Notes under the pieces: generated by a model
Seen by the model: the letters and a program-made list of their open reading frames with translations, nothing else
Database searches by the model: none
Told to the model about the DNA's origin: nothing
In this document: piece by piece, positions 23,997 to 30,815 of the stretch
Position numbering within the stretch: position 1 is the first letter of the stretch
Layout of the letters: every line of letters begins with the position of its first letter
From: Candidatus Thorarchaeota archaeon
GTDB lineage: Archaea; Asgardarchaeota; Thorarchaeia; Thorarchaeales; Thorarchaeaceae
Reading direction: 5' to 3'
NCBI GenBank assembly: GCA_048884785.1
Contig: JBHLQM010000001.1
Location: forward strand, 1 to 64,000
Length of the DNA: 64,000 bases
Position numbers and translations under genes: made by a program

Positions 23997-25181
23997 TTAA
24001 AAGGTTAAAAGACCTCTGGGCATCTCAATTGGCTCTTTGCAATTAGAGCACTCAACAGATTTGTATGGATCAAAGTTTGGAAATGTATCGAGTTCATATT
24101 TGAAACTGGACCCGCATTTCTTGCAGTTGATTCTAACATAGCCTCTCAATTCAATTGCCTTGTTCCAAGCCTTTAGGGCTTGTTCTTTAATGCCCATTCT
24201 GTCATATTCGATTGCTAGTGATATCCAAGGTGCCGCTGCGCCAGGATCATTTTGGGTCCATTTCAATAAGCAATCCAGCTGCTTAGAATTCCATCCCAGC
24301 TCTGAATATGCGTAACATAGACCTCGAAGGCATTCAGTTGAATACTCAATCTGCAACTCAGCCGTTTCGAGGTATTTGTTGCAGGAAGCGATGTCACCAT
24401 TGTTATGACTTATGACAGCTAGTCTTGAGAGTGCCTGGACATTATTTGGGTCCACTTTGAGGGCTTTTGTGAAGAAATCAACAGCTCTCTCTTCATTGCC
24501 TTGTGCAAGGGAAATCATGCCCATCAAAACAAGAGACCTATCATCGTTAGAAGCCATGGCGTAGGTGGACTCAACTAACGGAACTGCCTCATTCACTCTA
24601 CCCTGCAATAGCAATGTATAGGCGTAGTTTGCCCTTGCTGCCATAAGACTTGGACTTAGCTCATAAAGTGTTGCCCATTCTATCGTTGCCTGAGTAAAAT
24701 CACCAAGCCGATGAAGCGCAAGCGCGTATGTGCCTCTAAGGGAAAGATCCTCTGGAAATAGAAGAATTGCCTCCTCCAGTATTCGTACTGCCTCCCTATA
24801 GTCAGTCTTATCGTGCAGGAGTCGACCAAGTTCAATCCAATGCTCAGGTTCTTCAGGTTCAAGTTCAATTGCATGACGGAGTTCAACCTCAGCCTCCTCA
24901 AGTCGTCCTAGTACTCGAAGTGCTCGACCTAAGAACAAAGCAACAACGCAGTGGTCTTCAACCATCTCTTGTGCTCGACGTAGAACACGAACGGCATCTT
25001 TTGGTTTTTCAGCTTGGACATAGGCAATTCCGAGATAGACAAGTGCATCAGGTTCAGGATTGTACCTCTTCGCCAGCGGTTCAAGTATCTGAATTGCTTC
25101 TTCAATTCGTTCCTCTTCAATAGCCCGCATGGCCTTTTTGATGCTATCGTCAATCAAATTCCGTCTTGCCTCATAGTCCAA
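23997..25181 (-). CDS. TPR-repeat protein with C-terminal Zn ribbon
   Basis: Multiple TPR-like repeats (ALVYLG..Y, LFLGRAL, WIELGRL, WISLA..Y) and C-terminal CKKC...CSNC. Confidence 0.85.
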   Translation of the reverse strand: MDYEARRNLIDDSIKKAMRAIEEERIEEAIQILEPLAKRYNPEPDALVYLGIAYVQAEKPKDAVRVLRRAQEMVEDHCVVALFLGRALRVLGRLEEAEVELRHAIELEPEEPEHWIELGRLLHDKTDYREAVRILEEAILLFPEDLSLRGTYALALHRLGDFTQATIEWATLYELSPSLMAARANYAYTLLLQGRVNEAVPLVESTYAMASNDDRSLVLMGMISLAQGNEERAVDFFTKALKVDPNNVQALSRLAVISHNNGDIASCNKYLETAELQIEYSTECLRGLCYAYSELGWNSKQLDCLLKWTQNDPGAAAPWISLAIEYDRMGIKEQALKAWNKAIELRGYVRINCKKCGSSFKYELDTFPNFDPYKSVECSNCKEPIEMPRGLLTF

Positions 25182-25237
25182 TGCATCGGCAGAATAGCAG
25201 AAGTTCGATTATAAGTAGCCATCGTTATGGCAAAATT

Positions 25238-26080
25238 GTGAACGACCATAGAATATCAACGCCATTCTCAGTGCTTCATGCGGCAAGTCTGCTGAGTCAA
25301 ACTTCAAGAATCCGCAAATTTGCAGAGGCAATATCCAGAGTAGTAACGCCTGATACAAGAGTAGTTGATGTTGGGACAGGAAGCGGAATCCTCGCGATGC
25401 TTGCGGCTAAAGCAGGAGCAGCAGAAGTTGTGGCACTTGATATAAACCAAGAATCAGTGGAATATGCAAAGAAGGCAGCATTCATGAATGGGCTGAATGA
25501 TAGGATAGACTTTCGTGTCTGCCACTTTGCTGACTATTTTCCTGAGGAGAAATTTGACGTTGTAATCTGTGAGATGCTCTCTGCTATGCTGCTAGTAGAA
25601 CAGCAGATACCTGCAACCAGGCATATCTGGAGCTATGTGATAAAGAAAGATGGAGTTTTCCTGCCAAGTAGCGTCAGGACCTATATTGCCACAGTCCAAT
25701 GTGATTCGATTTGGAATAGATTCTCCATACAGAATCTACTTTTCCCCATGTTGCCTCAATCGGTTGCCAAAGGCCAAACAGATGACTTAACAGATCTTCA
25801 AGAATTATCCTTTTTCAATCTCTCAACCATTTGTGATGAGTTTATGGTCGAAAAGACCCTGAAAATGGATATAGTTCAAGATGGTGTTGCACACGGAATT
25901 ATAGGAGTTTTCGAAGCATCCCTGGTTGATGATATAAGACTGAGAATGGAAGATGGATGGAGGGAACTCTTCGTTCCATTTCAGAGAATGATTGACGTGA
26001 AGAGTGGAGATGTATTGGAAGTCTACATAAGCTATCAACCAGGAAGGCTAGATACCATTTGCATAGATGCGAATCTATAG
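25238..26080 (+). CDS. class I SAM-dependent methyltransferase, protein arginine methyltransferase (PRMT)-like architecture
   Basis: VVDVGTGSGILAMLAAKAGA, FDVVICEMLSAMLLVE (double-E-loop-like), FLPSS, and C-terminal beta-rich domain HGIIGVFEA...GWRELFVP. Probable GTG start at 25238. Confidence 0.8.
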   Translation: MNDHRISTPFSVLHAASLLSQTSRIRKFAEAISRVVTPDTRVVDVGTGSGILAMLAAKAGAAEVVALDINQESVEYAKKAAFMNGLNDRIDFRVCHFADYFPEEKFDVVICEMLSAMLLVEQQIPATRHIWSYVIKKDGVFLPSSVRTYIATVQCDSIWNRFSIQNLLFPMLPQSVAKGQTDDLTDLQELSFFNLSTICDEFMVEKTLKMDIVQDGVAHGIIGVFEASLVDDIRLRMEDGWRELFVPFQRMIDVKSGDVLEVYISYQPGRLDTICIDANL

Positions 26081-26135
26081 GATTGGCCAAGCAGACATAC
26101 TTTTATCACCTTGAGACTGGCCGTTGACATGAGTT

Positions 26136-26813
26136 GTGACTATTATGGAACTCAAGGGTCCTCTTTGCTACGTACTTGACTATGACGACATCGCGAATTA
26201 TGCGTACCAGACTGCTCTCCGAATTCGAGAGTCAGGATGGAAACCAGAGGCAATCATTGGTATTGCCCGTGGAGGATGGGTGCATGCACGAATTCAGTGC
26301 GATTTGCTGGGCGTTAAAAACCTGCATAGCGTAAAGGTAGACCATTGGGGGGTTACAGCAACGCGAGATGGAAAAGCCATGCTTTCATGTCCACTGGTGG
26401 GTGATGTCGAAGGCATGCGTGTCCTGGTAGTCGATGACATAACAGACACCGGGGAGAGTCTTATGACTGCTGTGAACCACATAAAGGATACAGGGAAACC
26501 TGCAGAAGTGAAGACAGCAACATTGATGCATATTGTCGGGTCCAAATTTGTTCCCGATTTCTTTGGAGTTGAGGTCACATGGGCATGGGAGATATGGCCA
26601 TGGAACTTCTATGAAGACATCACATCTCTCATAATGAAGATCTTTGAGGGAGAGAAGATTACAGATATGACTACAGCAGAGGTAAAGAAGCACCTGCGTG
26701 AATACAACAATATTGTCCTCTCAGACGAACAACTTTCCAAAGTCAAATCGCATATGGGTTTCCTTGGCAAAATCGTATATCCATTAGACAAGCACTGGAG
26801 AAAGAACGTATAA
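26136..26813 (+). CDS. type I purine phosphoribosyltransferase
   Basis: IARGGW, VDHWG and PRPP loop VLVVDDITDTGES. Confidence 0.9.
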   Translation: MTIMELKGPLCYVLDYDDIANYAYQTALRIRESGWKPEAIIGIARGGWVHARIQCDLLGVKNLHSVKVDHWGVTATRDGKAMLSCPLVGDVEGMRVLVVDDITDTGESLMTAVNHIKDTGKPAEVKTATLMHIVGSKFVPDFFGVEVTWAWEIWPWNFYEDITSLIMKIFEGEKITDMTTAEVKKHLREYNNIVLSDEQLSKVKSHMGFLGKIVYPLDKHWRKNV

Positions 26814-26909
26814 TCAGGCAGTATCAGTGCCTCTCCTTGGCATTTCAGTAGTTATAAATGGAGGAGAGAGCCATAGTTCTCACAGAACTCTAGGAGTTGA
26901 CATTGAGAG

Positions 26910-27773
26910 ATGGCTTTTGAAGCAAAACTCGATTACGCACTTATAGATAGGTCCCAGAAGGAGGATTTCGAGTCAGCACTGCCAGTTGAGATCGGGATGT
27001 TTGGCGGAAGTGGCAACTATGACTCTGATGTCATTAGTAATCCAATTGAAGTCAAAGTCTTTACACCGTTTGGTGCTGCATCAGACAATTTTATTATTGG
27101 TACAGTCAAGAGAAGAGCATTTGCATTTCTGGCGCGTCACAAACGCGGCCATACCATTCCACCCCATGCAATTAATTACAGGGCCAATATCTGGGGAATG
27201 AAAGCGCTTGGTGTTAAGAGAATAATATCGCCAGCTGCGTGTGGGAGTCTTCAGCCTCAAAAGGTCAAACTTGGTGAATTTGTTATAGCGGACCAGATTT
27301 TTGATAGAACTTTTGGACAGAGAAAAGATACTTTCTTTGAGGGAGGACCGATTGCACACCTCCCCTTTGCCGATCCTTTCTGCCCCGAGTTAAGAGGAGT
27401 TGCATTGCAGACTGCTGCAAAGCTGAAGTACAAAGTGCATGATGGAGGAACCTATGTTTGTATCAATGGGCCACGATTCTCCTCAAGAGCTGAATCGCTT
27501 TTCTACAATAGAAATGGATGGGATGTAATTGGAATGACTGCCTATCCTGAAGCCCCTCTAGCCAGAGAGGCTGGTATATGTTTCGTAAATATATCGATGC
27601 CCACAGATTATGATGTAGCTGGAGAGGAAGGACCAGTCACGCATGAGCTTGTTCTCAGAACAATGTCGCAAAATGTTGAACGAGTTCGTAAGCTCACATT
27701 CGATATGATTGATAATATTCCACAAGAAGCTAGTTGCAGCTGTCAGACAGCTATGAAAGGTGGATTATTCTAG
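26910..27773 (+). CDS. mtnP: S-methyl-5'-thioadenosine phosphorylase
   Basis: GGSG, LARH..GH.IPPH.INYRANIW, GPRFSSRAES, IGMT..PE..LARE, and TDYD (Asp-x-Asp for 6-aminopurine recognition). Confidence 0.9.
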   Translation: MAFEAKLDYALIDRSQKEDFESALPVEIGMFGGSGNYDSDVISNPIEVKVFTPFGAASDNFIIGTVKRRAFAFLARHKRGHTIPPHAINYRANIWGMKALGVKRIISPAACGSLQPQKVKLGEFVIADQIFDRTFGQRKDTFFEGGPIAHLPFADPFCPELRGVALQTAAKLKYKVHDGGTYVCINGPRFSSRAESLFYNRNGWDVIGMTAYPEAPLAREAGICFVNISMPTDYDVAGEEGPVTHELVLRTMSQNVERVRKLTFDMIDNIPQEASCSCQTAMKGGLF

Positions 27774-27785
27774 AGAATACAAACA

Positions 27786-27812
27786 GGGGTGAGTGTGTAA
27801 TGCACCCACCCC
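27786..27812. terminator. GC-rich hairpin between convergent mtnP and micro-peptide genes
   Basis: Imperfect inverted repeat GGGGTGAGTG...CACCCACCCC. Confidence 0.5.
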
Positions 27813-27856
27813 TATGAAGAATTCAGGTTATACGATCTCAGAGTCATGAACCGCGA

Positions 27857-27952
27857 CTACCAATCGTCGTCGTCGTCGTCGGCCCAGTCATCGTCGAAGT
27901 CGTCATCCCAATCCTCATCGTCTTCATCAAACCATAGTTTCTCGATGAACAA
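27857..27952 (-). CDS. 31-aa Asp/Trp-rich acidic micro-peptide
   Basis: Below the ORF-track cutoff. TTG at 27952 with GAGGTG RBS 8 nt upstream (27961-27966). Translation MFIEKLWFDEDDEDWDDDFDDDWADDDDDDW*. Mixed GAC/GAT codons argue for coding rather than a pure microsatellite. Confidence 0.75.
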   Translation of the reverse strand: MFIEKLWFDEDDEDWDDDFDDDWADDDDDDW

Positions 27953-28251
27953 GGATATTACACCTCAAATATGCAGTACAGAATTATGAATTAAGGATAC
28001 GCCCCACATTTGTGACCGATGAATTGTCCAAAAAGGCTGGTTAGGGATAAATAATTGCCTAAGAAGTTTCTCAGGAAAAAATCACCCCCAATTCTACTGA
28101 AAGAGGGTCTATAAAATCCGATTTCAGTGAAAAAAGCATATTAATGACCAGATAATGATGTCCCCAATAGTGAGAGTTTTATTACAAGCAAACAATATAT
28201 TGAAAATGTGTGCATGGTCCATTGTGACTGTGTCACAGGATTAGGATTTAT

Positions 28252-29088
28252 TTGGGAAGTTCTGATGATGTCCTAACCGACAAACAAGAAGCTCCAGCTT
28301 TCAATATGGAGACTCGCTTAGTTATTCTTCCTCAGAAGACATTATTCCGCCTAAATGGTTCAAAATTCGAAGATACCAGACGAATTGTTCGAGGTGTTTT
28401 TCTAATAAAGCGACGTCATAGGAAAATCCGTGAAGCCCTTAGCGAGGTACAACATATTCGATTCAAGAGGGCCAAGGACATCCCGAAAGGCGATTCAAGG
28501 AAGCTTAAACCATTTGAGGAGCGAACATTCGCCGTTGTGACCTACTCCTTTGGCGGTGCGTCTGAACAGCAAAAGAAAAAGATGCAAAGGCTACTTCTTA
28601 GGGCACCATGCATCAGAGTTAGGCCGGGTGTCCTGATATTCCCAAATCTCCGTTCCAAGGAAAAGGCTCGCTATTATTCCAATGCTGGAGACATCCTTGA
28701 CTCAAAGAAACTTGCTAGAGAGGCACATCTAATTGGAGCAAGAGTAAATCGGTGGACTCGCCTACGATTAGCTAATAGAGAGGCAGAAGAGTACATAGAT
28801 GCATCCTTCAATGAGATGCTCAAATTGGACCTGGATTCTTTTGAGAAGAAACTGAAACATCTTTCTCAAGAGATGGACGATCCCTCCATCTCTCAAAAAT
28901 CCCTCAGACTTCACCTGAATGTGCTTGCCGCGAAATTCATCAAACTCAAGAGGAAATATGGAATCCTCAAGGCAATATGGCAATACGATTCACAAAAAGA
29001 ACTGAAACGAGTATATAATCGAATGCTAAAGACTCGACGAAAGTATCAGGATAGAAATCTACATACCGAATCAGTAAAAGGTCGCTGA
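28252..29088 (+). CDS. basic hypothetical protein with Cas2/PaaX-central/ChrB-N-like domain and helical C-terminus
   Basis: K/R-rich. AVVTYSF...QKKKMQRLL..APCIRVRPGVLIFP resembles the Cas2-like ferredoxin motif of PaaX/ChrB. The start may be ATG 28306. Confidence 0.55.
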   Translation: MGSSDDVLTDKQEAPAFNMETRLVILPQKTLFRLNGSKFEDTRRIVRGVFLIKRRHRKIREALSEVQHIRFKRAKDIPKGDSRKLKPFEERTFAVVTYSFGGASEQQKKKMQRLLLRAPCIRVRPGVLIFPNLRSKEKARYYSNAGDILDSKKLAREAHLIGARVNRWTRLRLANREAEEYIDASFNEMLKLDLDSFEKKLKHLSQEMDDPSISQKSLRLHLNVLAAKFIKLKRKYGILKAIWQYDSQKELKRVYNRMLKTRRKYQDRNLHTESVKGR

Positions 29089-29114: not shown

Positions 29115-29906
29115 ATGAGAATTGGCGTTGCGCAGATGGAACCTCATGTTTGTGAATCCGAATACAATTTGAAGCATCTCTCTGAGATACTAAAGAAGGC
29201 AGATTCAGAAGATGTGGATGTGCTCGTTATACCTGAACTAGCAAACTCCGGGTATGCATTTAATTCCTTGAAAGAGGTTGAAAAATCAGCCGAGGAGATA
29301 CCAAGTGGAATATTCTCAAATCAGCTCCTTGAATGGTCAGGAAATGAACGATTAGTAGTAGCCGGCATATGTGAGAAAAAGAATGGGAGATTATACAACT
29401 CAGCGGGAATATTCAGCAATGGCAAATTGATGGAAGTATACCGTAAGATACACCTTTTCAGTGAAGAGAAGAGATGGTTTACGCCAGGCTCAGTTGAACC
29501 TCCAGTAGTAAGACATGGAGAATATAACTTTGGCATCATGATCTGCTGGGATTGGATTTTTCCCGAGGTGTCTAGAATATTGACATTAAAAGGTGCACAG
29601 GTAGTCCTTCACCCAGCAAATCTTGTACTAGCATATTGCCAAGCTGCGATGGTTACTCGTTCAATTGAGAATGGAATCTTCACAGCAACGGCAAATAGAA
29701 TAGGCACCGAGAGAGAGTTGATGTTTTCAGGAAAGTCACAAATAACCGATACGCGAGGCAAAGTGCTTATCTCGATGCCTGACGGAATAACCGGAGTTTA
29801 TTCTGCAGACATCAGCCCTTCTGAGGCAGACAATAAACACATGACCAAGAAAAACCATTTACTAAACGACCGAAGGCCTGACTTATACTCAAGGATTGCT
29901 ACCTAG
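29115..29906 (+). CDS. carbon-nitrogen hydrolase (nitrilase family)
   Basis: Glu-Lys-Cys triad motifs IPELANSGY, YRKIHLF and ICWDWIFPE. Confidence 0.92.
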   Translation: MRIGVAQMEPHVCESEYNLKHLSEILKKADSEDVDVLVIPELANSGYAFNSLKEVEKSAEEIPSGIFSNQLLEWSGNERLVVAGICEKKNGRLYNSAGIFSNGKLMEVYRKIHLFSEEKRWFTPGSVEPPVVRHGEYNFGIMICWDWIFPEVSRILTLKGAQVVLHPANLVLAYCQAAMVTRSIENGIFTATANRIGTERELMFSGKSQITDTRGKVLISMPDGITGVYSADISPSEADNKHMTKKNHLLNDRRPDLYSRIAT

Positions 29907-30270
29907 GGTTTCTGACTTTGTCCGGTATGCGACCGCGCCATTTATTGGCTGGATATTTGCTTTTGTTTTTCTCAAGTTTTTCGAGGATTGCTTTTGTTGG
30001 TTCAATTCCGGTAGTATCTGCTAGGCGTAGCATGTAAATTATGACATCAGCCATCTCATCGGCAATACTCTTCCTATATTCCTCACTTCTAAGCAGGTTG
30101 TCTATTTCCTCATGTGTAAGCCATTGGAATCGTTCAAGCAGCTCACCTAGTTCAATTGCAGCAGAAACAGCCAGTGAGGAGGGTTTTTGAAATCCTTCCC
30201 ACCCTCGTTCTTGAATGAATTCTCGGATGAGGATTGTGAGATTCTCTAGAGTGAGATCCTCATCGTTCAT
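29899..30270 (-). CDS. MazG-like nucleotide pyrophosphohydrolase (dCTPase-like)
   Basis: ERGW, ELGELLE.FQW, DEMADV and KN..KYP motifs. Confidence 0.88.
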   Translation of the reverse strand: MNDEDLTLENLTILIREFIQERGWEGFQKPSSLAVSAAIELGELLERFQWLTHEEIDNLLRSEEYRKSIADEMADVIIYMLRLADTTGIEPTKAILEKLEKNKSKYPANKWRGRIPDKVRNPR

Positions 30271-30281
30271 TCAAAACACCA

Positions 30282-30815
30282 CTACTTTTTCGGTTCTGCG
30301 GAAAAGGTTCTTTGAATTAACCATAGAGTGTAGATTGAGAAAGCAACAATAACTGCTGCAAGCAGAATTACAGAGGTATTGGAGCCTGGTATCAGCGATA
30401 CTCCAGTAGTAATCATTAGTATTGCATCCCAAACACCTGCGGCAGCCGAAACAATTACGACGATTAAATTCGTAAGCCCACCCCAACGTAGTCTTGAGCC
30501 TTCTGCTCCAGTCCAGACCTTGATTGAATTGATTGATGCAACTGCCACCAAGACCAACAATAGATATGTGGCAAGCAGGTAGTAAACCCACTGAGACCAG
30601 ATTGCTGGGGGCGTAAGCAGCGATAAACTGAGCCCTAGAACGATTAGAATGAAGGCTGTCTTTGGCCACGGATCATGGACGAAGGAACTAACACGCTCAG
30701 CAGGTGTTGCGTAGGAGCGCTCCTCATAGGAATCATTGTCGTCAGGGAATGTATCATCCTCGTCATCATACTCATCATCTTCAAATTCATCAAAATCTTC
30801 GTTGGAGTCGTACAT
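30282..30815 (-). CDS. four-TM membrane protein with acidic N-terminal tail
   Basis: About 35-aa D/E-rich N-terminus followed by four hydrophobic helices. Confidence 0.75.
   Translation of the reverse strand: MYDSNEDFDEFEDDEYDDEDDTFPDDNDSYEERSYATPAERVSSFVHDPWPKTAFILIVLGLSLSLLTPPAIWSQWVYYLLATYLLLVLVAVASINSIKVWTGAEGSRLRWGGLTNLIVVIVSAAAGVWDAILMITTGVSLIPGSNTSVILLAAVIVAFSIYTLWLIQRTFSAEPKK

What the first reader, a model, noticed from the sequence alone, without database searches (positions are those of the whole stretch)
27857..29088. Charge-complementary divergent pair: acidic micro-peptide and basic Cas2/PaaX/ChrB-like protein
Seen: the hyper-acidic peptide and a K/R-rich 278-aa protein are head-to-head across an approximately 300-nt AT-rich region. 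The latter has a Cas2-like ferredoxin motif and a helical C-terminus, with no CRISPR array nearby. Known: the Cas2/VapD fold includes RNase toxins and regulator domains, and acidic disordered peptides are typical antitoxins or nucleic-acid mimics. Inference: an undescribed toxin-antitoxin or regulator/anti-regulator module. The Cas2 catalytic Asp appears replaced (YS instead of YD), which favours a binding role.
Basis: inference. Interest (0 to 1): 0.7.

Follow-up and report, generated by a model that had tools for sequence, protein, structure and literature searches.

The report
Acidic micropeptide and basic protein module
A never-annotated 31-residue, extremely acidic, tryptophan-studded peptide gene and an orphan, very basic 278-residue protein gene form a real, conserved gene pair in Thorarchaeota and other Asgard archaea. 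It is not a classical toxin-antitoxin pair, and its function is so far only inferred.

Summary
A 31-aa peptide (19 D/E, Trp at 7/15/23/31, TTG start, GAGGTG ribosome site) lies head-to-head with a 278-aa protein (pI 10.4, net about +30) across a 299-nt spacer of 35.8% GC.

The link is not chance:
- 42 of 44 testable loci of the basic gene carry such a peptide ORF within 900 nt. These span nine Asgard families, at least three genomic contexts and two gene orders.
- The whole 3.6-Mb bin holds only three comparably acidic short ORFs.

The dependence runs one way:
- The peptide persists beside mtnP in genomes where the basic gene was not found.
- Similar peptides stand alone in Asgard families that lack the basic gene.

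The basic protein has no Pfam, NCBIfam, PADLOC or PDB sequence match. It folds confidently into ferredoxin-like units plus a three-helix bundle. The PaaX/Cas2 likeness is weak and at fold level only. There is no catalytic Asp and no CRISPR array.

Best reading (about 0.4): the peptide is a polyanionic partner, a mimic or chaperone, of a nucleic-acid-binding-type basic protein, and both are expressed from a fixed-geometry divergent promoter. A plain regulator-and-target relation is the main rival. Toxin-antitoxin is unlikely.

This scan has met the same module before on other Asgard DNA. I found no paper that describes it.

The parts
27783..27815 (-). Terminator-like hairpin (13 pairs, 7 G-C) with a T-rich tail, downstream of the peptide stop; it lies between the convergent mtnP and peptide genes
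   Evidence: fold energy -28.1 kcal/mol for the 87-nt stretch that contains it
27857..27952 (-). Acidic Trp-periodic micropeptide gene (31 aa plus stop; net charge -18; TTG start)
   Evidence: Homologous micro-ORFs with a start codon, a ribosome-binding site and a stop occur in more than 40 loci. The 24-nt periodicity is seen. Four exact peptide sequences are absent from a 15-billion-protein collection, so gene callers have not called them.
27961..27966 (-). Shine-Dalgarno GAGGTG, 8 nt upstream of the TTG start
   Evidence: Read from the sequence. GAGGTGAA occurs 5-9 nt upstream of the start in 10 of 16 Thorarchaeaceae loci.
27989..27996 (-). TATA-like CCTTAATT, 37-44 nt upstream of the peptide start; the promoter role is inferred
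   Evidence: AATTAAGG is conserved in alignment A5 and in the upstream regions
28081..28086 (+). Conserved spacer motif ATCACC at a fixed distance of about 128-133 nt from the peptide start
28160..28164 (+). Conserved GTC[AC]C motif 205-211 nt from the peptide start, preceded by an A/T-rich TATA-like stretch (28134-28145). Inferred to be the promoter/initiator or an operator of the basic gene.
   Evidence: Present in 16 of 16 Thorarchaeaceae loci linked to the basic gene; absent from peptide-only loci
28223..28237 (+). Palindrome TGTGAC-TGT-GTCACA just upstream of the basic gene's start; seen in this locus only
   Evidence: not conserved in relatives
28252..29088 (+). Basic orphan protein ('BASIC', 278 aa, pI 10.4): a small N-terminal beta-rich unit (21-73), a ferredoxin-like unit (93-173) and a three-helix bundle (177-277)

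Best explanation
The two genes form a conserved module of Thorarchaeota and several other Asgard lineages.

The peptide is a disordered polyanion of about 30 residues. It consists of runs of 3-7 Asp/Glu separated by single Trp/Phe residues, and usually ends in Trp.

The 278-aa protein carries a net charge of about +30 and has no enzyme signature. It is built like a nucleic-acid- or polyanion-binding protein, with tandem ferredoxin-like units and a three-helix bundle. Its conserved Lys/Arg residues cluster in helix 105-116 and hairpin 121-134.

I propose the following mechanism:
1. Both genes are expressed divergently from a spacer of fixed geometry.
2. The peptide binds the basic protein's positive surface by electrostatics, with Trp residues as anchors.
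3. It thereby acts as a nucleic-acid mimic or chaperone that titrates the protein or keeps it soluble. This is a regulator/anti-regulator or client/chaperone pair, not a poison/antidote pair.

The peptide class is older and more widespread than the basic protein and also works without it. The basic protein is the dependent partner.

Shown here: gene reality, linkage, fold, charge and spacer geometry. Inferred: co-expression, physical binding and nucleic-acid binding.
For: Linkage:
- 42 of 44 testable BASIC loci have an acidic-Trp micro-ORF within 900 nt.
- It is divergent and upstream in Thorarchaeaceae, f13, f6 and f31. It is co-directional and downstream in f12 and f32.
- The other neighbours differ: mtnP/nitrilase, GNAT+MFS, EamA, ribosomal S3Ae, CitMHS, RPB9-like and more. 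The peptide is therefore the only constant neighbour.
- In f12, three genomes each hold two BASIC paralogues. Each paralogue keeps its own peptide, and the peptide subtype follows the paralogue clade.

Rarity: only 3 comparably acidic short ORFs exist in the 3.6-Mb bin.

Translation signals: a GAGGTG-type ribosome site, a start codon and a conserved stop, usually after Trp, occur across loci.

Charge: BASIC family members carry +17 to +41 (pI 10.1-11.1). The peptides carry -14 to -35.

Fold:
- The model is confident (pLDDT 89.8, pTM 0.85).
- The family shows no conserved acidic or catalytic residue. Conserved positions are Y98, K109, R113, R122, R124 and R134.
- No fused forms appear among the 34 family representatives in 1.84 billion proteins.

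Asymmetry: BASIC almost never lacks the peptide, whereas the peptide often lacks BASIC. That fits a client that needs its partner.

Shared control region: two motifs sit at fixed distances from the peptide start in 16 of 16 Thorarchaeaceae loci.
Against: - There is no direct evidence that the two products touch, or that BASIC binds nucleic acid.
- BASIC has no recognisable DNA- or RNA-binding motif or wHTH.
- The same linkage and the same asymmetry would arise if BASIC merely regulated transcription of the peptide gene.
- The peptide persists without BASIC beside mtnP: G004; G008; G010 and the rest of genus g5. Similar peptides stand alone in the families that lack BASIC. Its primary role therefore cannot be to neutralise BASIC.
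- The net charges of BASIC and of its peptide do not co-vary across 35 loci (Spearman rho -0.02 and 0.13).
- Two BASIC loci (G044, G031) have no acidic ORF within 2.5 kb.
Confidence: 0.4

Rival explanations
1. Regulator and target. BASIC is a DNA-binding transcription factor that is analogous to PaaX but has lost the wHTH. It sits beside its target, the peptide gene, and controls it together with its own promoter. The two products do not bind each other, and the peptide has a function of its own.
For: - The divergent arrangement with a long AT-rich spacer is typical of regulator-target pairs.
- Two positionally fixed motifs, ATC[AC][AC]C at about 130 nt and GTC[AC]C at about 207 nt, occur in 16 of 16 loci and are absent from peptide-only loci.
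- The best whole-chain fold hits are the repressor PaaX and Rv0674.
- The target exists without the regulator in many genomes.
Against: - There is no HTH or other DNA-binding motif.
- hhalign against a PaaX profile gives probability 0.07%, and the PaaX_M and ChrB_N HMMs do not match.
- A net charge of +30 is far above that of typical site-specific regulators.
- The fixed motifs are not shared by the other families that keep the pair.
- In f12 and f32 the peptide lies 200-460 nt downstream on the same strand.
Confidence: 0.25
2. Toxin-antitoxin module. BASIC is a toxin of the Cas2/VapD fold, and the acidic peptide is its antitoxin.
For: - The products have opposite charges, the genes are adjacent, and the fold is Cas2-like ferredoxin (Z 5.2; Foldseek probability 0.90-0.92).
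- The asymmetry fits: the putative toxin is almost never without the peptide, while orphan peptides are tolerated.
Against: - The genes are divergent, 299 nt apart, and each has its own promoter-like signals. They are not an operon.
- No acidic or catalytic residue is conserved at the Cas2 position.
- The gene is single-copy, and its tree follows genera with no sign of mobility.
- It lies in a housekeeping neighbourhood.
- There is no PADLOC match.
- Peptides of this class are common in genomes that lack BASIC.
Confidence: 0.05
3. No functional link. The two genes are neighbours by inherited synteny only.
For: - Much of Thorarchaeaceae shares the same block: methyltransferase, PRTase, mtnP, peptide, BASIC, nitrilase, MazG.
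- In G004, G008 and genus g3 the peptide stays at mtnP without BASIC.
Against: - The pair recurs in unrelated contexts and in a different gene order in other families.
- It moved as a unit in the clade of g3, g6 and g15.
- The f12 paralogues each keep their own peptide.
- Such ORFs are very rare genome-wide.
Confidence: 0.05
4. Substrate or carrier. The peptide is a precursor (RiPP-like) or an amino-group or ligand carrier with an acidic tail (LysW-like), and BASIC is its scaffold or recognition protein.
For: - It is a short ORF next to a conserved protein, and the C-terminal Trp is conserved.
- Earlier scan notes drew the LysW analogy.
Against: - BASIC has no enzyme-like fold or conserved catalytic residues.
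- No ATP-grasp, LysX or RiPP-enzyme neighbour is conserved.
- The peptide has no Zn-ribbon and no leader/core organisation.
Confidence: 0.05

Closest known systems
PaaX / Rv0674 (PaaX-family repressors; PDB 8a39, 3kfw)
   Same: Both have a ferredoxin-like (Cas2-like) unit followed by an all-helical C-terminal domain. They are the best whole-chain Foldseek hits (E 3.7e-3 and 7.3e-3, probability 0.87 and 0.84). Domain-level Z is 4.7-5.0.
   Different: BASIC has no N-terminal winged helix. The global superposition is poor (TM 0.25, rmsd about 19 A). There is no HMM match to PaaX_M, and hhalign probability is 0.07%. BASIC is strongly basic and is tied to a micropeptide, not to a catabolic operon.
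Cas2 (CRISPR adaptation nuclease; e.g. PDB 8d3p_E, 2ivy, 8ia4)
   Same: Residues 93-173 have the beta-alpha-beta-beta-alpha-beta ferredoxin-like topology (Foldseek probability 0.90-0.92 at E 0.02-0.16; Z 5.2).
   Different: The scores are no better than for ACT, NikR-C, Lrp RAM or pro-carboxypeptidase domains. The catalytic Asp after strand 1 is absent. There is no CRISPR array nearby. BASIC has extra N- and C-terminal domains.
DSS1/Sem1 (Pfam PF05160), the eukaryotic acidic Trp-containing disordered adaptor and DNA mimic (biology from my own knowledge)
   Same: Both are very small, extremely acidic, studded with Trp/Phe and expected to be disordered. Both plausibly bind basic surfaces of nucleic-acid-binding partners.
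   Different: None of the 17 peptides matches any Pfam family at E<=1; the sole hit up to E 10 is one peptide against GP67 at E 3. The peptides are half the size of DSS1, have a regular Trp period and mostly end in Trp. Homology cannot be assessed in such low-complexity sequence.
Polyelectrolyte pairs and DNA-mimic proteins, such as prothymosin-alpha with histone H1, acidic histone-chaperone tails with aromatic anchors, and phage Ocr/ArdA (my own knowledge; an analogy of mechanism only)
   Same: Each is a highly acidic, often disordered, partner that neutralises or competes for a highly basic nucleic-acid-binding protein.
   Different: None is a genetically linked micropeptide of about 30 aa with its own divergent promoter. 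No family relation was tested or is claimed.
Type II toxin-antitoxin modules
   Same: Two adjacent genes encode products of opposite charge. The larger gene is almost never found without the smaller one.
   Different: These genes are not an operon. There is no toxin catalytic signature, no sign of mobility and no multicopy pattern. Inheritance is vertical, and the peptide class is widespread on its own.

Membership tests
Cas2 | Ferredoxin-like beta-alpha-beta-beta-alpha-beta fold | tested here: met
   Model residues 93-173. Cas2 chains score Z 5.2 and Foldseek probability 0.90-0.92. Many other ferredoxin-like families score equally well.
Cas2 | Conserved catalytic Asp at the end of strand 1 | tested here: not met
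   The local sequence is VTYSF. Y98 is invariant, and position 99 varies (S/Q/R/H/N/K) across 30 family members.
Cas2 | Match to the family sequence model, and association with cas1 or a CRISPR array | tested here: not met
   No Pfam or NCBIfam hit at E<=1 or E<=10. No repeat array between 15 and 42 kb.
PaaX family | N-terminal winged helix-turn-helix (PF07848) | tested here: not met
   No Pfam hit. The modelled N-terminus has four strands and one helix.
PaaX family | Sequence or profile similarity to PaaX_M / PaaX_C | tested here: not met
   PF20803 finds nothing in the genome at E<=10. hhalign of A1 against a 14-member PaaX alignment gives probability 0.07%, E 0.72.
PaaX family | Overall fold: a Cas2-like middle domain plus a helical C-terminal domain | tested here: inconclusive
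   Foldseek 8a39 gives E 3.7e-3, TMq 0.25, rmsd 19.6 A. Domain Z is 4.7.
ChrB | Match to ChrB_N (PF20229) | tested here: not met
   No match in the genome at E<=10. No Pfam hit for the protein.
Type II toxin-antitoxin | Co-transcribed adjacent genes (an operon), with the antitoxin next to the toxin | tested here: not met
   The genes are divergent with a 299-nt spacer, and each has its own ribosome site and TATA-like elements.
Type II toxin-antitoxin | Known toxin family or catalytic signature; patchy, mobile distribution | tested here: not met
   No Pfam or PADLOC hit. No conserved catalytic residue. The gene tree follows genera and the gene is single-copy.
Type II toxin-antitoxin | Growth inhibition by the toxin, relieved by the antitoxin | not testable with these tools
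   This needs expression in a laboratory host.
DSS1/Sem1 (PF05160) | Match to the family model | tested here: not met
   No Pfam family at E<=1 for the window peptide. For the 17 peptides scanned up to E 10, the only hit is one peptide against GP67 at E 3.
DSS1/Sem1 (PF05160) | A small, acidic, disordered protein that contains Trp | tested here: met
   31 aa with 19 D/E and 4 W. This is composition only and says nothing about homology.

The most novel reading that the evidence does not exclude
The acidic-Trp micropeptides are an ancient Asgard-wide class of polyanionic 'anchor-and-cloak' cofactors for basic chromatin- or RNA-binding proteins. They would be functional forerunners or analogues of eukaryotic acidic-aromatic disordered chaperones such as DSS1, prothymosin-alpha and histone-chaperone tails. 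BASIC would be a new type of nucleic-acid-binding protein whose activity is set by a polyelectrolyte complex with the peptide, and in some lineages with a poly-Lys micropeptide too. The whole would be expressed from a promoter of fixed, possibly wrapped, geometry.
Probability: 0.15. Interest if true: 0.85.

Novelty: categorically new. Interest (0 to 1): 0.65.

Why it matters
Neither gene belongs to any described family, and gene callers miss the peptide gene: four exact sequences are absent from a collection of 15 billion proteins.

A micropeptide of about 30 residues, built only from Asp/Glu runs and spaced tryptophans, is kept next to a +30 orphan protein across Asgard archaea. This is a compact and experimentally tractable system: a synthetic peptide, one recombinant protein and a 300-bp DNA.

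If the peptide turns out to be a nucleic-acid mimic or a dedicated chaperone, it would show that polyelectrolyte regulation of the eukaryotic type, by acidic-aromatic disordered proteins, exists in the closest archaeal relatives of eukaryotes. It would also add a class of functional micro-genes to archaeal annotation.

If it is only a regulator-target pair, it still defines a new regulator fold family and a widespread unannotated gene.

Tried and rejected
- Complex prediction of BASIC (alignment A1) with the peptide (alignment A4) gave no verdict (score 0.01 against a mark of 0.32). It counts neither for nor against binding.
- Sequence searches of BASIC found nothing meaningful. This covers Pfam, NCBIfam and PADLOC, a PDB profile search (best E 0.047, to coiled coils only), the ChrB_N and PaaX_M HMMs over the whole genome, and hhalign against PaaX.
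- VIA-align on the full model is dominated by generic three-helix bundles (spectrin repeats, Z 11-12), which is uninformative for helical bundles. The N-terminal half alone gives only generic ferredoxin-like matches with Z<=6.6.
- An Rfam scan of 27700-28400 gave only a chance hit (E 0.8), so no known RNA element lies in the spacer.
- Charge covariation between BASIC and its peptide is absent and uninformative.
- The first related-loci scan with the single protein found nothing, and alignment A1 was too diverse to seed a scan.
- The 'second copy in the same genome' argument is rejected. Contig C62 carries a second BASIC, an acidic peptide and a poly-Lys micro-ORF. However, its genes have syntenic homologues at 48-75% identity on C37 and C112 of the same bin, and its BASIC is sister to a genus-g6 copy. 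C62 is probably a co-binned relative, so I count it as an independent locus and not as a paralogue.
- The poly-Lys micro-gene reported by earlier scan notes as a third module part is absent from the window locus, where mtnP abuts the peptide. It is present at C62 and in f12, f32, f31, g3, g6 and g15 loci.
- The fixed GTC[AC]C geometry is not shared by f13, f6 or f31.
- Three literature searches found no description of the module.
Full report
**1. What is in the window**

The minus strand at 27857-27952 holds a 31-codon ORF.
- It has 16 Asp, 3 Glu and one Lys. Trp sits at residues 7, 15, 23 and 31 (a period of 8), and Phe at 2, 8 and 19.
- It starts with TTG. GAGGTG lies at 27961-27966, 8 nt upstream of the start.
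- It ends in Trp followed by a stop codon.
- A 13-pair hairpin with a T-rich tail follows at 27815-27783.
- Tandem Repeats Finder sees the 24-nt codon periodicity and nothing else between 15 and 42 kb, so there is no CRISPR array nearby.

The plus strand at 28252-29088 encodes a 278-aa protein, called BASIC here.
- It has 65 Lys+Arg against 33 Asp+Glu, and pI 10.4.
- Its TTG start is supported by the conserved N-terminal residues of close relatives.

The spacer between the two genes is 299 nt at 35.8% GC, against 43.7% for the window.

**2. Organism and family**

Relatives that carry the gene are titled Candidatus Thorarchaeota or Promethearchaeota MAGs, so the window comes from an Asgard archaeon of the Thorarchaeaceae.

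BASIC has no hit in Pfam, NCBIfam, PADLOC or PDB sequences. An exhaustive HMMER search of 1.84 billion representatives finds only 34 relatives, all 134-295 aa long, so there are no fused forms.

A profile search of 400 Asgard genomes finds it in 91:
- Thorarchaeaceae: 59 of 85.
- Family f12: 17 of 19.
- f13: 3 of 3. f32: 3 of 5. f31: 2 of 3.
- Single genomes of f6, f8, f10 and f15.
- The largest family, f9: 0 of 135.

All members aligned are very basic, with net charge +17 to +41.

**3. The pair is a unit**

Short ORFs with a comparably acidic tail are very rare. There are three in the whole 3.6-Mb bin, and two of them lie next to a BASIC gene.

I examined 44 BASIC loci with enough flanking sequence. 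Of these, 42 have an acidic micro-ORF studded with Trp/Phe within 900 nt.
- One apparent exception, G003, is an assembly gap that cuts the peptide.
- Two loci, G044 and G031, truly lack one within 2.5 kb.

The arrangement differs between lineages. It is divergent and upstream in Thorarchaeaceae, f13, f6 and f31. It is co-directional and downstream in f12 and f32.

The surrounding genes differ as well.
- Much of Thorarchaeaceae shares one block: methyltransferase, PRTase, mtnP, peptide, BASIC, nitrilase, MazG, a membrane protein with an acidic N-terminus, and a TPR protein.
- The clade of genera g3, g6 and g15 has the pair elsewhere.
- In other families its neighbours are GNAT/MFS, EamA, ABC-2, ribosomal S3Ae, CitMHS, an RPB9-like zinc ribbon or a 2-thiouracil desulfurase.

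The peptide is the only constant neighbour of BASIC.

Nearly every peptide ORF has a GAGGTG- or GGAGG-type ribosome site 5-9 nt before an ATG, GTG or TTG start. In family f12, three genomes each carry two BASIC paralogues. Each paralogue has its own peptide, and the peptide subtype follows the paralogue clade.

**4. The dependence is one-sided**

That is what I find.
- In G004 (same genus, 92% complete) the peptide lies between mtnP and the nitrilase gene, and BASIC is gone.
- G008 is the same.
- In G010 the peptide lies beside mtnP without BASIC. All five genomes of its genus g5, up to 98% complete, lack BASIC but carry the acidic-Trp pattern.
- Genus g3 keeps a peptide-only gene at the mtnP locus and the full pair at another locus.
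- Acidic-Trp micro-ORFs also stand alone in families with few or no BASIC genes (f9, f18, f5, f20). They often have a short basic N-terminus (M-x-G-P-K-K-K), long spacers on both sides and no constant neighbour.

So the peptide class is the broader and presumably older element, and BASIC is the dependent partner.

**5. What BASIC looks like**

AlphaFold2 on the 30-member alignment gives a confident model (pLDDT 89.8, pTM 0.85) with three parts:
- a small unit of four strands and one helix (21-73);
- a beta-alpha-beta-beta-alpha-alpha-beta ferredoxin-like unit (93-173);
- a long three-helix bundle (177-277).

The fold comparisons are weak.
- The best whole-chain Foldseek hits are PaaX (8a39, E 3.7e-3) and Rv0674 (3kfw, E 7.3e-3), but with TM of only 0.25.
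- The N-terminal half alone matches many ferredoxin-like domains at Z 4.5-6.6. Cas2 scores 5.2, Rv0674 5.0 and PaaX 4.7. None stands out.
- The bundle matches spectrin-type repeats at Z 11-12, which is generic for helical bundles.

Profile tests of the PaaX, ChrB and Cas2 idea all fail.
- ChrB_N and PaaX_M find nothing in the genome at E<=10.
- hhalign against a PaaX alignment gives probability 0.07%.
- The Cas2 catalytic Asp position is variable in the family.

The conserved residues are Y98, K109, R113, R122, R124, G126, F130, P131, R134 and Y255. This is a basic and aromatic surface, not an active site.

**6. The spacer**

The spacer is barely alignable between genera, yet four features are conserved in Thorarchaeaceae:
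- the peptide's ribosome-binding site;
- a TATA-like CCTTAATT about 40 nt upstream of the peptide start;
- an ATC[AC][AC]C motif at about 128-133 nt from the peptide start;
- a GTC[AC]C motif at 205-211 nt.

The last motif is present in 16 of 16 loci. It is usually the only such 5-mer in 520 nt, and an A/T-rich element lies 20-30 nt before it. It is missing from peptide-only loci and from the other families.

I read this as a divergent promoter or operator of fixed geometry. The roles of the motifs are inferred. No Rfam family matches.

**7. Mechanism**

Three things can be stated from the analysis:
- The two genes are a conserved functional module.
- The products are a disordered polyanion and a polycationic, non-enzymatic protein.
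- BASIC needs the peptide gene nearby, but the reverse is not true.

The most economical mechanism (confidence about 0.4) is that the peptide binds BASIC through charge, with Trp residues as anchors. It would then act as a nucleic-acid mimic or a dedicated chaperone that titrates BASIC or keeps it soluble, and the two would be co-expressed from the shared spacer.

The main rival (about 0.25) is that BASIC simply regulates the peptide gene. It predicts the same linkage and the same asymmetry, and the fixed motifs fit it. Against it, BASIC has no DNA-binding motif and an unusually high charge. The two readings are not exclusive, because the peptide could feed back on a BASIC repressor.

A toxin-antitoxin module (about 0.05) fits poorly. 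The genes are divergent and 299 nt apart. BASIC is single-copy, and its tree follows genera. There is no catalytic signature and no defence-library hit, and the neighbourhood is a housekeeping one.

Pure synteny (about 0.05) is contradicted by the multiple contexts. A carrier or precursor role (about 0.05) lacks any conserved enzyme neighbour.

The complex prediction gave no verdict and is not used as evidence. Charge covariation is absent.

**8. Caveats**

- The bin's second BASIC, peptide and poly-Lys set on contig C62 is probably from a co-binned relative. Its genes have syntenic 48-75%-identical counterparts on C37 and C112, and its BASIC is sister to a genus-g6 sequence. Bin contamination is 5.4%.
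- 'Absent' in MAGs means not found. Completeness ranged from 60 to 100%.
- Homology among low-complexity peptides cannot be proven. I group them by composition, size, expression signals and position.

**9. Earlier notes of this scan and the literature**

The scan has met this module before on other Asgard DNA. Those notes mention a poly-Lys micro-gene, a control region of fixed length, and resemblance to ChrB/PaaX and to DSS1.

I tested these points here.
- The poly-Lys micro-ORF exists at C62 and in f12, f32, f31, g3, g6 and g15 loci, but not at the window locus.
- I had already found the fixed geometry independently (before).
- ChrB, PaaX and DSS1 fail as family assignments.

Three full-text searches found no paper that describes the peptide or the pair. 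Four exact peptide sequences are absent from a 15-billion-protein collection, while BASIC is present there but unnamed.

**10. Verdict**

This is a real, conserved and undescribed two-gene module. Its function is unproven. It is more likely a polyanion partner paired with a basic nucleic-acid-binding-type protein than a toxin-antitoxin pair. Interest 0.65.

Noticed in passing
G000 contig C62:522-1891 (locus L012): A second set consists of a BASIC gene (1052-1891 +), an acidic peptide (715-795 -) and a 31-aa poly-Lys micro-ORF (522-638 -), the only such K-rich micro-ORF in the bin. The contig's genes have syntenic 48-75%-identical counterparts on C37 and C112, and its BASIC is sister to a genus-g6 copy. 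C62 is therefore probably bin contamination, not a paralogue.
   Followed up: yes
window 30282-30815 (-): A 177-aa membrane protein has a hyper-acidic N-terminus containing a conserved [ST]FPD motif. It is syntenic with the module in most Thorarchaeaceae loci (MazG, this gene, TPR protein).
   Followed up: partly
L010:3759-4094, L017:3711-3980, L018:2662-2904, L024:2819-2902, L025:2884-2985, L019:2409-2489: Several relatives carry a second, more divergent acidic-Trp micro-ORF between the BASIC stop and the nitrilase gene, convergent with BASIC. The window has only a 27-nt gap there.
   Followed up: partly
L073-L088 (Asgard families f9, f18, f5, f20, f8, f7): Stand-alone acidic-Trp micro-ORFs of 30-55 aa occur in families with few or no BASIC genes. 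They often have a basic N-terminus (M-x-G-P-K-K-K), have long spacers on both sides and show no constant neighbour. In two f9 genomes (L085, L086) a homologous protein of about 193 aa is divergent from the peptide.
   Followed up: partly
window 25166-27773 (+): A SAM methyltransferase with PrmA/PRMT5_C-like hits, a purine/pyrimidine phosphoribosyltransferase and MTA phosphorylase (mtnP) lie co-directionally upstream. A CN-hydrolase (29115-29906) and a MazG-like gene (29899-30270, -) lie downstream. This block is conserved across Thorarchaeaceae.
   Followed up: no
G000 contig C33, around 27849 (+): An unrelated protein of about 140 aa ends in an acidic tail with a Trp (…DDDWEEEDDE). It was the only other hit of the acidic-Trp DNA pattern in the bin.
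   Followed up: no
window 28223-28237 (+): A perfect palindrome TGTGAC-TGT-GTCACA lies 15 nt upstream of the BASIC start codon. It is not conserved in relatives.
   Followed up: partly
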